From a virus (Duplodnaviria > Heunggongvirae > Uroviricota > Caudoviricetes): a DNA stretch of 41,037 nt. Below, in pieces: positions 12,001 through 15,000 of this stretch. Position numbers: made by a program. Within the stretch, counting starts at the first letter, position 1. Each line of letters opens with the position of its first letter. The stretch is from IMG/VR virus record IMGVR_UViG_2684623059_000003, positions 1 through 41,037 of that record. One strand, written 5' to 3'.

Positions 12001-15000
12001 TTTTTTCTTACCGGATGCCAGGGCTTTCTCGTAACGTTCATTTTCACGTTGTATCGCCGCATCCCTGACAGCCTGATCGGCGTACTGCATGGCATTAATA
12101 CGCGCAATTTCACGCTGATGTCGTGCAGCTTCCGTTTCATTCATCCGGTTCAGTGCAGCATTTTCAGCATTACGGCGTTTCTGTTGCTCCTGATAATTCC
12201 GCTCTGCCTGCTCTTTTGCATCCAGCAAATCCTTCTGGCGTTTTTTCTCCTGAAGATCGTTAAGACGCTGCTGATCGTATTCAACCTGAGAAGATGATGC
12301 CGTCCAGGGGAGTCTTTTCGCCCGCGACACTTTCTCCTGCAAAGTGGCAATCTGCGCATCCAGCGAGTCTTCACGACCAATATTCATGGCCGCATCCCAG
12401 AACTGCTTCCACCAGTCAGACAAGGTTTGCAGCGTACTACCCAGCGCATTGAGGTTATTATCAATATCCGCAGTACGCCGACCGGTTTCCTCTGCCAGTG
12501 CAGACATGGCTATCCGTGCCGCATCACTGGACCGCCCCTGCTCTCCAAGGACGCGTATCTGCTCAAGCTGAGTGGCAGTAAGAAAATGCAGCTCATTGTC
12601 CAGAGACTTCGCGGCATTTACAGGATCATCCTTCAGCCGCTTAAACTGATTTATGGTATCGCTGACCGACTGGCCAACCGATCGCTCCATCTGTGCGGCA
12701 GCTCTCGCCACCATACCGATATCGTTTCCACGAAATGCACCACTCCCCACCACCTGAGCAAGCGCACCGGCTGCAGCATGTTGCGTGATACCATTCCCGG
12801 AAATAGCACGACTGAGCGTCCACAGCTGCCCGGCAGTGACTCCGGCATAATGCCCCGTCAGCGACAGCTGGCGGTTAAATTCTTCCCCCTCCTTCTGACC
12901 GTCATACCAGGCTTTACCCAGACCATAGACAGCCGCGGCAATACCGCCAATAACCGCTCCTGGCATCATGCCTTTCGGTGACATCAGTGTGTCTATCCAT
13001 CCGGCACGGTTAGCCAGCGTTATCCCGGATCCCCTCAGCGCCCCTAAATTGCCGCGGGCCAGTTCACCTATCAGAACGCCTATCTCCTGGCGGGCTGCTG
13101 CACTTTTCAGACCCAGCGAATGCGTGGCTTTTCCTGCCTGCTCCATTTTGCGGATATACACTTCTGCAGCACTGCTTACCCCCAGCTGGGCTGCCTTAGC
13201 ACGAAGCAACTCAGAAGATGAAAGATTCTGGCGGGTTGCCTGCTCTTTAAGCTGACGGATAAACGCCACTTTCTGTCGGGTAGCCTCTTCCTCAGCCTGT
13301 GTAAGAACACGGGTTTTCGCAGTAACCTCAGAAATCAGCGCCAGATAATCCTGCTGGCCAATCCCGCCACTGTTTCTGGCCTGTCGGATCTGCTGCTGAA
13401 TACGCTGTAATTCCTGTAGCCCCGCACTGGCCTGTTTCACACTGTCAATCTGACGATAAAACGCAGCAGCCGCTTTATCCTGAGCCTCCGCCAGAGCCAT
13501 GGCCTGCGCCTGTTCCTCGCGCATTTTCTGGCTCAGTGCCTCCATGCGCTGGCGGGTTTTCTCCACCTCGCGGGCCATGCGTTCATGAGCCTGTGCGTTC
13601 TTCTCCACCGTCTGCGCATGGACGGATGCGGCTGTTGCAGCCGAAGAAGCCGCCTGCGTTGTCTGCCTGGCGGCCTGAGTCTGACGCTCCATAAAACGCT
13701 GCATACGGGCAGAAGACCGTTCTGCATCGCTGGCTGCACCATTCAGAAGGTTTTTGATACGGGGAATTTCATTTTTAAACTCTGCCGCATCAATCCCCAA
13801 ATCAATGACCAGGTTGGCTATCTGGTCCATAACGCACACCTCCGGAAATACCTTCCCCAAGATGCATCAGTTCTTCGTCCGTTCGCTCCGGTATCCCGTT
13901 CTCTTCCGGTAAAAGGCTGAAATCAGCCACCGCAGCATCACTGCTGCCGGACACCATTCTCACGATCAATGCCTTCAGCGAGGCAAACTGCGCATCCATC
14001 CACACATCACTGAAGCTCTGCATCCGGAAATAATCGCCCCACTCACCAAGCTCAGTGGCCGACATTTCCGACAGCATCCGCCGCCAGTCTGCCCGCCGGA
14101 ACTCCCGGGCAAGCCGCATGACAAACTGCATTTCCCGCGTCAGGACTTTTCCGGCGTCAGCACCTCATGCTCCAGATCCCCGGCATTCTCAATGGCTCCC
14201 ATACCGCTCAGCGACAGAACCATCTCCGCCCCCGCTCCCAGGGCATCATACGACCATGTTGTAATAACGGATGCGCAAAGCGTCTCAACATCCTGAGACT
14301 GTTCCGCATTCCACAGTGAGCGGGAAACCAGCCAGGCATTGATATCCATCCCCATCCGCAGAAAAGCAATCTGTCGTTCAGCCTCCGGCAGTTCTCCCTC
14401 TTCGGCATCAAACTTTGCCGTTCGCTGCTGAACAAACGCCAGATATTCAATTCTCTGCAGCCCGGACAGCTCACTGAGCACCACGGACTGCTTTTCATAA
14501 TTAAACGTGCCCTGTTTCAGAAACATCATGTTCTCCACCTGCAAAAAAGCCCCGGATAACCGGGGCAAATGATGAGTATCGTCCTGTTAACCTGCGGCGC
14601 TGACAGCCACCGTAGCCACTGCCACAAAATCGCCGTCAGAAGTCATGCCCACAATGCTGACACTGCCCTGCTTCACGCCTTTCACCGTGGCCACAAGCCC
14701 GTTCAAGGTCACAGTGGCAGTCTGTGGATCTGTCGAATGCACACTGATCGCTTTGTCACTGGCTCCGTCAGGTTTTACTGTAAAGGTCAGCGTGGTGGTT
14801 GCTCCCACTTTTACACTGGCAGATGCCGGTGCCACCGTCAGCCCGGTAACGCTCACGGTTTCAGTGCCTTCCTCTGCCAGATACGGACGCCCCACACCGC
14901 TGATTTTCACAGTGCGGGTCATCACGTCTTTTGAGGCAATGGTTTTACCCAGTGAACTCAGCCAGCCGCGGAAAACATCAACAGTGCCGTTGGGATATTT

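What the first reader, a model, noticed from the sequence alone, without database searches (positions are those of the whole stretch)
13802..14568. G/G-T tail chaperone frameshift with a non-canonical heptamer G_GAA_AAG
The T frame is open in -1 relative to G from 14209 down to 14131, and G ends ...CCG GAA AAG TCC TGA. The only slippery-like sequence in the overlap is GGAAAAG at the last codons of G, a one-base variant of lambda GGGAAAG; the re-paired P-site codon would be GGA, which is tolerable. This may set a different G:GT ratio.
Basis: partly seen in the sequence, partly recalled or inferred. Interest (0 to 1): 0.5.

Follow-up and report, generated by a model that had tools for sequence, protein, structure and literature searches.

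The report
Known GGAAAAG tail-chaperone frameshift site
This is the ordinary lambda-type G/GT tail-chaperone frameshift of a common E. coli prophage, and its GGAAAAG slip site is the majority form in this gene family and is already annotated in phages N15 and LLS.

Summary
The window carries a mEp460/cdtI/Ayreon-like lambdoid prophage. On the minus strand lie V, a terminator, G (Pfam lambda gpG family), a -1-frame T segment (Pfam T family) and the tape measure gene.

The heptamer G_GAA_AAG (14152..14146) is there, two codons before the G stop. It is the only slippery site in the G/T overlap. The T frame opens at 14164, not 14209, because a TGA at 14167-14165 closes it. That leaves only 22 nt for the shift.

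I compared 58 related loci, which fall into 23 lineages at 80% identity. Each locus has exactly one A_AAR site at the homologous position. The counts are 17 GGAAAAG, 4 GGGAAAG (lambda type), 1 AGAAAAG and 1 GGCAAAA. Synonymous positions are fixed at the site although the G tail is otherwise hypervariable.

No 3' structure is conserved. An SD-like GAGG lies 10 nt upstream here and in some other lineages.

GenBank already marks GGAAAAG as the -1 slippery sequence in N15 and LLS. The frameshift reading is therefore supported by comparison, but it is not novel. No product was detected and no efficiency was measured for any GGAAAAG member, so the G:GT ratio remains untested.

The parts
14587..15330 (-). 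Major tail tube protein gene (lambda V-like) with a C-terminal Ig-like domain. It lies just upstream of the G/T unit.
   Evidence: Pfam PF16461 Phage_TTP_12 E 1.2e-66 and PF02368 Big_2 E 1.4e-11. Annotated as major tail protein in Ayreon and mEp460.
14543..14566 (-). Intrinsic-terminator-like hairpin GCCCCGG-TTAT-CCGGGGC followed by TTTTTT, between V and G.
   Evidence: Terminator scan. The same element is annotated as a terminator in the Ayreon, mEp460 and N15 records.
14140..14526 (-). Gene G, the tail assembly chaperone (zero-frame product, 128 aa from ATG 14526; an in-frame ATG also lies at 14529). The SD GGAG is at 14536..14533 and the stop TGA at 14142..14140.
   Evidence: Translation. 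Pfam PF06894 Phage_TAC_2 (lambda gpG) E 1.8e-39. All homologues begin MFLK.
14161..14166 (-). SD-like GAGGTG. Its GAGG core ends 10 nt 5' of the heptamer. It is a candidate upstream stimulator and has not been tested.
   Evidence: Duplex with the anti-SD is -9.2 kcal/mol, which falls in the top 5% of 24-nt windows on this strand. A 4-nt SD core lies 9-12 nt upstream in 10 of 23 lineages, against a 5% base rate. This is confounded by a conserved Glu-Ala/Val peptide motif and by shared ancestry.
14165..14167 (-). TGA stop in the -1 (T) frame. It sets the upstream limit of the region in which a productive shift can occur.
   Evidence: Translation of the T frame.
14146..14152 (-). Shift heptamer G_GAA_AAG. 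GAA (Glu) sits in the P site and AAG (Lys) in the A site. After a -1 slip the two tRNAs face GGA and AAA.
   Evidence: Sequence. It is the only candidate in the 22-nt overlap. It is identical in 82 close loci. It lies at the homologous position in 17 of 23 lineages, and lambda's G_GGA_AAG occupies the same position. GenBank annotates the same heptamer as the slippery sequence in N15 and LLS.
13802..14146 (-). T segment, read only in the -1 frame after the slip. The first codon is GTC at 14146..14144 and the stop is at 13804..13802. The predicted GT fusion is 241 aa with the junction ...LTPEK|VLTREMQFVMRLAREF...
   Evidence: Translation. Pfam PF06223 Phage_tail_T E 5e-15. The predicted GT aligns with the phage 434/lambda GT straight through the junction, 34% identity, E 1e-41.
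10756..13830 (-). Tape measure protein gene, the client of G and GT. It overlaps the end of T by 29 nt.
   Evidence: Pfam PF06791, PF09718 and PF24622. Annotated as tape measure in relatives.

Best explanation
This is the lambda-type G/GT tail assembly chaperone recoding unit of a lambdoid prophage.

Most ribosomes translate G (128 aa) and terminate at TGA 14142..14140. A small fraction slip back one base on G_GAA_AAG (14152..14146). In that slip, peptidyl-tRNA-Glu moves from GAA to GGA, giving G:C, a middle-position G.U, and A:U. tRNA-Lys moves from AAG to the better-matched AAA. Those ribosomes then read GTC CTG ACG ... in the T frame and make a 241-aa GT fusion (...TPEK-VLTREMQFVMRLAREF...).

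By analogy with lambda, G and the G part of GT coat the tape measure protein, and the T part recruits the tail tube protein. The G:GT ratio is fixed by the slip frequency.

Shown here: the gene order, the family memberships, the frame geometry, the uniqueness of the site in the overlap, and its conservation at the nucleotide level.

Inferred: that the shift actually happens, its frequency, the tandem (two-tRNA) route, and the assembly role.

No conserved 3' RNA structure is involved. An SD-like GAGG 10 nt upstream may add stimulation.
For: (1) Family and order. V-terminator-G-T-tape measure. G matches PF06894 at E 1.8e-39 and T matches PF06223 at E 5e-15.

(2) Geometry. T is in the -1 frame and is closed upstream by a TGA at 14167..14165, which leaves a 22-nt overlap with one slippery site.

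(3) Positional homology. Lambda/434 reads GCG GGA AAG | V F D G E L S F A L K L A R E. This window reads CCG GAA AAG | V L T R E M Q F V M R L A R E. The predicted GT aligns with the annotated 434 GT through the junction.

(4) Conservation. All 58 usable loci have exactly one A_AAR site at this position. The 23 lineages split into 17 GGAAAAG, 4 GGGAAAG, 1 AGAAAAG and 1 GGCAAAA. A Stx2 phage has A_AAA_AAG.

(5) Nucleotide-level selection in an otherwise hypervariable G tail.
- The codon before the site ends in G in 22 of 23 lineages across four amino acids (CCG, GCG, CTG, GTG). Background use of these codons in the same genes is 27-47%.
- Glu is GAA in 18 of 18 lineages, against a 54% background.
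- Lys is AAG in 22 of 23 lineages, against a 30% background.

(6) The T frame has no conserved start codon. The ATG at 14131 is CTG or another codon in Gifsy-1, lambda, N15 and Proteus.

(7) Prior annotation. GGAAAAG is marked as the -1 slippery sequence in N15 and LLS. T of Gifsy-1, with the identical CCG GAA AAG TCC TGA, is annotated as made by translational frameshifting.

(8) Mechanistic precedent. A_AAG is the most shift-prone tetramer in E. coli (Sharma 2014, PMC4066793). NNA_AAG sites are used naturally, as in IS1222 and B. subtilis cdd (Atkins 2016, PMC5009743).
Against: No protein evidence exists for this locus or, as far as I could find, for any GGAAAAG member of the family.

In a reconstituted E. 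coli system, AUG GAA AAG gave mainly zero-frame product and served as the poorly slippery comparison for G_GGA_AAG (Peng 2019).

A_AAG without a stimulator was close to background in vivo, at about 0.15% (Sharma 2014).

No conserved downstream structure is present to raise the rate.

RefSeq and most phage records annotate T as a separate CDS starting at ATG 14131.
Confidence: 0.88

Rival explanations
1. T is made as a free-standing protein. Translation would start at ATG 14131, either by ordinary initiation or by termination-reinitiation after the G stop 8 nt upstream, and no frameshift is needed in this clade.
For: An ATG exists at 14131..14129, 8 nt after the G stop. RefSeq/PGAP and the mEp460 record annotate T this way.
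Against: There is no usable SD. GGGA ends one base before the ATG.

The ATG is not conserved. It is CTG in Gifsy-1, and lambda, N15/LLS and Proteus have no Met before the LARE motif.

The T frame is open upstream exactly through the heptamer in every lineage, and the heptamer is fixed at synonymous positions. Free-standing T would not explain either fact.

In lambda, T is known only as part of GT (Atkins 2016 review).
Confidence: 0.05
2. The shift is a single-tRNA event on A_AAG only. tRNA-Lys would slip either in the A site or in the P site while the next codon waits. The P-site tRNA-Glu would not re-pair, so the 'heptamer' is really a tetramer or hexamer motif.
For: A_AAG alone supports -1 shifting in E. 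coli, and NNA_AAG sites are used naturally.

Two lineages lack a re-pairable P-site codon: Morganella has A_GAA_AAG and Ewingella has G_GCA_AAA. In these and in Proteus the stop codon directly follows the Lys codon, which fits P-site slippage at a slow stop.

The protein product would be identical.
Against: The first G of the heptamer is kept in 22 of 23 lineages through four different preceding amino acids, all using the G-ending codon. This is expected only if GAA-to-GGA re-pairing, or that base itself, matters.

In this window a sense codon (TCC) separates AAG from the stop.
Confidence: 0.25
3. The fusion arises by transcriptional slippage of RNA polymerase on the A run, not by ribosomal slippage.
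For: The site contains a run of four A residues.
Against: Four A residues are far shorter than the runs reported for productive transcriptional realignment, which are more than 7 A or more than 8 T (Antonov 2013, PMC3711429). Lambda-type members have only three A residues at the same position, yet lambda is the proven ribosomal case.
Confidence: 0.01

Closest known systems
Bacteriophage lambda G/GT -1 programmed frameshift (G_GGA_AAG; Levin, Hendrix and Casjens 1993, as summarised in Atkins et al. 2016, PMC5009743)
   Same: Both belong to the same Pfam families (PF06894 G, PF06223 T). They share the gene order V-G-T-H, the -1 geometry, and a shift site at the homologous codon pair near the end of G. 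The T sequence after the junction is the same type (K-V-x6-F-x-x-x-LARE). Neither has a conserved 3' stimulator.
   Different: The heptamer differs by one base (GAA instead of GGA in the P site), so P-site re-pairing has a middle G.U instead of being cognate. The G stop lies 1 codon after the heptamer rather than 5. GT is 34% identical, and T lacks lambda's C-terminal duplication (241 vs 279 aa).
Phage N15 genes 14/15 and Escherichia phage LLS genes 11/12 (GenBank NC_001901, PQ299149)
   Same: Both use the same heptamer GGAAAAG at the same position. The depositors explicitly annotated it as the -1 slippery sequence.
   Different: They belong to a different sub-lineage of the family. LLS G is about 33-35% identical to the G here, and N15's C-terminal G tail is of the same type as LLS. 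The preceding codon is GCG or GTG instead of CCG. The G stop is 5 codons downstream. There is no SD-like core at 9-12 nt (shown for LLS; N15's upstream sequence GAA CCC GTT ACT GCG likewise holds none).
Gifsy-1 STM2596/STM2595 (NC_010392) and the mEp460 / cdtI / Ayreon / phi458 group
   Same: Gifsy-1 has the identical CCG GAA AAG TCC TGA, and its T is annotated as made by translational frameshifting. The mEp460 group is 97-99.7% identical in DNA to this window.
   Different: The mEp460-group records and RefSeq E. coli genomes list G and T as separate CDSs without a join.
A_AAG / NNA_AAG single-codon -1 shift sites (IS1222 G_CGA_AAG; B. subtilis cdd A_CGA_AAG; Licznar et al. 2003, as summarised in PMC5009743)
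   Same: The A-site AAG-to-AAA re-pairing by the single E. coli tRNA-Lys is the main driver. The P-site codon is not of the XXY type.
   Different: Here the P-site codon GAA can still re-pair on GGA with one G.U, and the base that allows it is conserved. IS1222 uses a 3' stimulator, according to the review. None is conserved here.
E. coli dnaX frameshift cassette (A_AAA_AAG with SD 10 nt upstream and a 3' hairpin)
   Same: Both use Lys AAG in the A site. Both have an SD-like sequence at the same 10-nt spacing, GAGG here.
   Different: There is no 3' hairpin here. The expected efficiency is a few percent or less, not 50-80%. Whether the SD-like element works here has not been tested.

Membership tests
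Lambda-type G/GT tail assembly chaperone frameshift unit | The upstream ORF belongs to the lambda gpG chaperone family. | tested here: met
   PF06894 E 1.8e-39, 134.9 bits against a cut-off of 27.
Lambda-type G/GT tail assembly chaperone frameshift unit | The downstream segment belongs to the T family, lies in the -1 frame, overlaps the end of G, and has no conserved start codon of its own. | tested here: met
   PF06223 E 5e-15. The -1 frame is open from 14164. The ATG at 14131 is not conserved in homologues.
Lambda-type G/GT tail assembly chaperone frameshift unit | The unit is located between the major tail protein gene and the tape measure gene. | tested here: met
   V-like gene at 15330..14587 and tape measure gene at 13830..10756.
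Lambda-type G/GT tail assembly chaperone frameshift unit | A slippery sequence lies in the overlap at the position homologous to lambda's G_GGA_AAG. | tested here: met
   G_GAA_AAG is at the homologous codon pair, and the junction alignment runs through it. The site is conserved family-wide.
Lambda-type G/GT tail assembly chaperone frameshift unit | A GT fusion protein is actually produced at a low fixed ratio and is required for tail assembly. | not testable with these tools
   This needs proteomics or reporter assays. There are no published data for this clade in the searched library.
Canonical X_XXY_YYZ tandem-slippage heptamer | The first three bases are identical (XXX), so the P-site tRNA re-pairs with first and second positions intact. 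| tested here: not met
   The heptamer is G_GAA_AAG. The P-site -1 codon GGA gives a second-position G.U with tRNA-Glu (Peng 2019). The YYYZ half, A_AAG, is canonical.
Stimulated -1 PRF cassette (dnaX / IS3 type) | A conserved 3' hairpin or pseudoknot lies 5-9 nt after the heptamer. | tested here: not met
   The 60-nt downstream MFE is -20.0 with z 0.1. RNAalifold over 23 lineages gives -1.24 kcal/mol and no covarying pair. A 116-nt fold has z -2.3, but it pairs the slip site itself and starts at spacer 0.
Stimulated -1 PRF cassette (dnaX / IS3 type) | An SD-like sequence lies about 10 nt 5' of the heptamer. | tested here: inconclusive
   GAGG ends 10 nt upstream here (-9.2 kcal/mol). An SD core at 9-12 nt is present in 10 of 23 lineages against a 5% base rate. 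It is absent from lambda, N15/LLS and others, and it is confounded by a conserved peptide motif.

The most novel reading that the evidence does not exclude
Most lambda-family tail chaperone genes of Enterobacterales use G_GAA_AAG, a heptamer that biophysical studies treat as a poorly slippery comparison sequence. Lambda's textbook G_GGA_AAG is the minority.

These phages may work at a lower GT:G ratio than lambda. Alternatively they may reach a lambda-like ratio with help from context, such as the SD-like GAGG 10 nt upstream (present here and in about 40% of lineages) or a stop codon directly after the Lys codon in some lineages.

Either outcome would make this family a natural series for measuring how P-site mismatch and context set low frameshift rates.
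Probability: 0.3. Interest if true: 0.4.

Novelty: already known. Interest (0 to 1): 0.15.

Why it matters
It matters mostly for annotation. This locus is present in 1848 of 5426 complete E. coli genomes. RefSeq lists G and T there as two separate proteins, with T starting at a fortuitous ATG. The real second product is most likely a 241-aa GT fusion.

For people who study recoding, the family survey gives a useful reminder. The textbook lambda heptamer is not the typical one in its own family. The commonest natural site has an imperfect P-site re-pairing. Searches restricted to X_XXY_YYZ, as in Sharma et al. 2014, miss it.

None of this changes what is known about tail assembly.

Tried and rejected
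(1) Downstream stimulatory RNA structure. The 60-nt fold is no better than shuffles (z 0.1). The family-wide consensus fold has no structure and no covariation. A 116-nt fold (z -2.3) pairs the slip site itself with the EFRR codons and starts directly after the heptamer, so it cannot act as a classical stimulator. Rejected.

(2) Compensation idea: SD-like elements accompany the weaker heptamer. SD cores occur in 8 of 17 GGAAAAG lineages and 1 of 4 GGGAAAG lineages. The numbers are too small and show no clear association. Left open.

(3) Independent start of T. No SD is present and the ATG is not conserved. Rejected as the conserved mechanism.

(4) Transcriptional slippage. The A run is too short. 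Rejected.

(5) Literature. A search for GGAAAAG plus frameshift returned mostly noise, apart from Peng 2019. A search for 'GAA AAG' with phage tail terms found nothing relevant. Xu, Hendrix and Duda 2004 and Licznar 2003 are not held, so I could not check whether they list or measured this heptamer.

(6) In-frame G-T fusion proteins in the protein database (P0032, P0046). These are internal deletions, not single-base changes at the heptamer, so they say nothing about the slip.

(7) The first scan of viral contigs returned only near-identical loci, which are uninformative for conservation.
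Full report
What is there.
All genes discussed are on the minus strand. The order is as follows:
- a lambda V-like major tail protein gene (15330..14587; PF16461 E 1e-66, plus an Ig-like Big_2 domain);
- an intrinsic-terminator-like hairpin (14566..14549, followed by a T run);
- gene G (ATG 14526 or 14529, stop TGA 14142..14140; PF06894, the lambda gpG chaperone family, E 1.8e-39);
- a T segment in the -1 frame (to the stop at 13804..13802; PF06223, minor tail protein T, E 5e-15);
- the tape measure gene (13830..10756).

The DNA is 97-99.7% identical to phages phi458, Ayreon, cdtI and mEp460. The G-T stretch is found in 1848 of 5426 complete E. coli genomes. It is a very common prophage module.

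Checking the observation.
The statement that the T frame is open from 14209 is wrong. Translating the T frame shows ...GSGA*GADAGKVLTREMQF..., with a TGA at 14167..14165. 14208 is the end of an ORF in the other (+1) frame.

The region in which a -1 shift can yield a G-T fusion is therefore only 22 nt, from 14164 to 14143. G_GAA_AAG (14152..14146) is the only slippery-type sequence in it. The finding's upper coordinate, 14568, is a mechanical TTG inside the terminator hairpin. All homologues start MFLK, so the real start is the ATG at 14526, or the one at 14529.

Is it the shift site?
Lambda-type phage 434 reads GCG GGA AAG and then, in the -1 frame, V F D G E L S F A L K L A R E. This window reads CCG GAA AAG and then V L T R E M Q F V M R L A R E. 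The predicted GT fusion aligns with the annotated 434 GT straight through the junction, at 34% identity over 251 residues and E 1e-41.

Distant G homologues (56-80% identical) have a hypervariable last 20 residues yet all end in [TS]PEK[SP]. A scan of one genome per species gave 64 loci. With the phage records, 58 were usable. Every one has exactly one A_AAR-type site in the G/-1 overlap, at the homologous position.

Clustering the predicted GT proteins at 80% identity gives 23 lineages:
- 17 with GGAAAAG (Escherichia, Shigella, Salmonella, Citrobacter, Enterobacter, Kluyvera, Buttiauxella, Atlantibacter, Kosakonia, Erwinia, Proteus, Xenorhabdus and others);
- 4 with lambda's GGGAAAG (the lambda group, an E. 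albertii/Stx2a-phage type, a Serratia/Symbiopectobacterium group, and Edwardsiella);
- 1 with AGAAAAG (Morganella);
- 1 with GGCAAAA (Ewingella).

A Stx2 phage has TCA AAA AAG. In an average-linkage clustering of the GT proteins the GGGAAAG groups are not all adjacent but are interspersed among GGAAAAG groups.

Synonymous positions are fixed at the site:
- The preceding codon ends in G in 22 of 23 lineages although it encodes Pro, Ala, Leu or Val. Background use of those G-ending codons in the same genes is 27-47%.
- Glu is GAA in 18 of 18 lineages, against 54% background.
- Lys is AAG in 22 of 23 lineages, against 30% background.

The lineages are not independent, so I give no formal probability. 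Four different amino-acid contexts all using the G-ending codon still argue that the first base of the heptamer is selected. That favours a two-tRNA slip in which tRNA-Glu re-pairs on GGA.

Stimulators.
The 60 nt after the heptamer fold no better than shuffled sequence (z 0.1). RNAalifold over the 23 lineages finds essentially nothing (-1.24 kcal/mol, no covarying pairs). A 116-nt fold has z -2.3, but it pairs the slip site itself and begins with no spacer. I therefore do not regard it as a stimulator.

Upstream, GAGGTG (14166..14161) places a GAGG core exactly 10 nt before the heptamer, the spacing used in dnaX. The duplex with the anti-SD is -9.2 kcal/mol, which only 5% of windows on this strand reach. 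A 4-nt SD core at 9-12 nt is present in 10 of 23 lineages, against a 5% base rate at same-phase positions in the same genes.

It is absent from lambda, N15/LLS, Kluyvera and Serratia types. It coincides with a conserved Glu-Ala/Val in the G tail, and it shows no clear association with heptamer type. I record it as a candidate only.

Rivals.
- Free-standing T from ATG 14131, as RefSeq and mEp460 annotate it. This lacks an SD, and the ATG is not conserved.
- Transcriptional slippage. This is excluded by the short A run.
- A pure single-tRNA A_AAG slip. This is a real alternative route giving the same protein. It may dominate in Proteus, Morganella and Ewingella, where the stop codon directly follows the Lys codon. 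The conserved first G argues against it being the whole story here.

What is known.
The lambda G/GT frameshift and its role are textbook. The G:GT ratio is about 30:1; G and GT bind the tape measure, and T recruits the tube protein (Atkins et al. 2016, PMC5009743).

GGAAAAG is not new as a G-T site. The N15 GenBank record marks 10027..10033 as 'slippery sequence for -1 translational frameshift', and that sequence is GGAAAAG. Phage LLS carries 'minus-one programmed translational frameshift site GGAAAAG' together with a joined CDS. Gifsy-1, which has the identical CCG GAA AAG TCC TGA, has T annotated as made by translational frameshifting. The PRFect predictor includes a 'twofour' motif class, which by its name would fit GGAAAA.

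On mechanism, A_AAG is the most shift-prone tetramer in E. coli but is near background without a stimulator (Sharma et al. 2014, PMC4066793). NNA_AAG sites are used naturally. Peng et al. 2019 used AUG GAA AAG as the 'less slippery' comparison to G_GGA_AAG and saw mainly zero-frame product with wild-type EF-G (PMC6924986).

Verdict.
The feature is real, and the frameshift interpretation is well supported by comparison, though not by any protein data. The heptamer is neither rare nor newly recognised: it is the majority form in its family and is already annotated in at least two phages.

The practical value is in correcting the widespread annotation of T as a separate gene in this prophage group. 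A modest open question remains about how such a weak heptamer reaches a useful rate.

Noticed in passing
window 14161..14166 (- strand); loci L094, L099, L107, L109, L111, L123 and others: An SD-like GAGG core lies exactly 10 nt 5' of the shift heptamer, the same spacing as in dnaX. An SD core lies 9-12 nt upstream in 10 of 23 GT lineages, against a 5% base rate. This is confounded by a conserved Glu-Ala/Val peptide motif and by shared ancestry. The core is absent from lambda and N15/LLS.
   Followed up: partly
L096-L098, L101 (Proteus), L103 (Morganella), L099 (Ewingella): In these lineages the G stop codon directly follows the Lys codon of the shift site (GAA AAG TAG, GAA AAG TAA, GCA AAA TAG). 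The two lineages with the least re-pairable P-site codons (A_GAA_AAG and G_GCA_AAA) are among them. This suggests a switch to single-tRNA slippage helped by a slow stop codon.
   Followed up: partly
L153 (Stx2a-converting phage LC567841, locus 1201..1623): A member of the same G family uses the dnaX-type heptamer A_AAA_AAG (TCA AAA AAG) at the homologous position. The family therefore spans at least five different heptamers.
   Followed up: no
window 14543..14566 (- strand): A strong terminator-like hairpin (7 G-C pairs, then TTTTTT) sits between the major tail protein gene and G. It is also annotated in Ayreon, mEp460 and N15. It would lower transcription of G, T and the tape measure gene relative to the tube protein.
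   Followed up: partly
NZ_CP027534.1 (L154) and 1848 of 5426 complete E. coli genomes; mEp460, cdtI, Ayreon records: RefSeq/PGAP and most phage records annotate T of this prophage group as an independent 109-aa CDS starting at a non-conserved ATG, with no ribosomal-slippage join. This looks like a systematic annotation gap.
   Followed up: partly
proteins P0032 and P0046: Two database proteins are in-frame G-T fusions created by internal deletions that remove the end of G. One of them joins ...WSYDA directly to GKVLTREMQF, that is, in the T frame just before the junction. These may be assembly artefacts or natural deletion variants.
   Followed up: no
window 17007..19226 (- strand): A 739-aa ORF contains a ClpP-like protease segment followed by what looks like a major capsid protein segment, a head protease-capsid fusion arrangement. 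I judged this by eye from the translation and did not search it.
   Followed up: no
L127-L139 (genome-contig hits in Pseudomonas, Paenibacillus, Kitasatospora, Shewanella and others): Many unrelated genome assemblies contain short, low-coverage contigs whose G region matches the query exactly as lambda does (33% identity over residues 2-110) and whose shift-site region, where it could be read, is lambda's. These are most likely lambda spike-in or cloning contamination, not real prophages.
   Followed up: no
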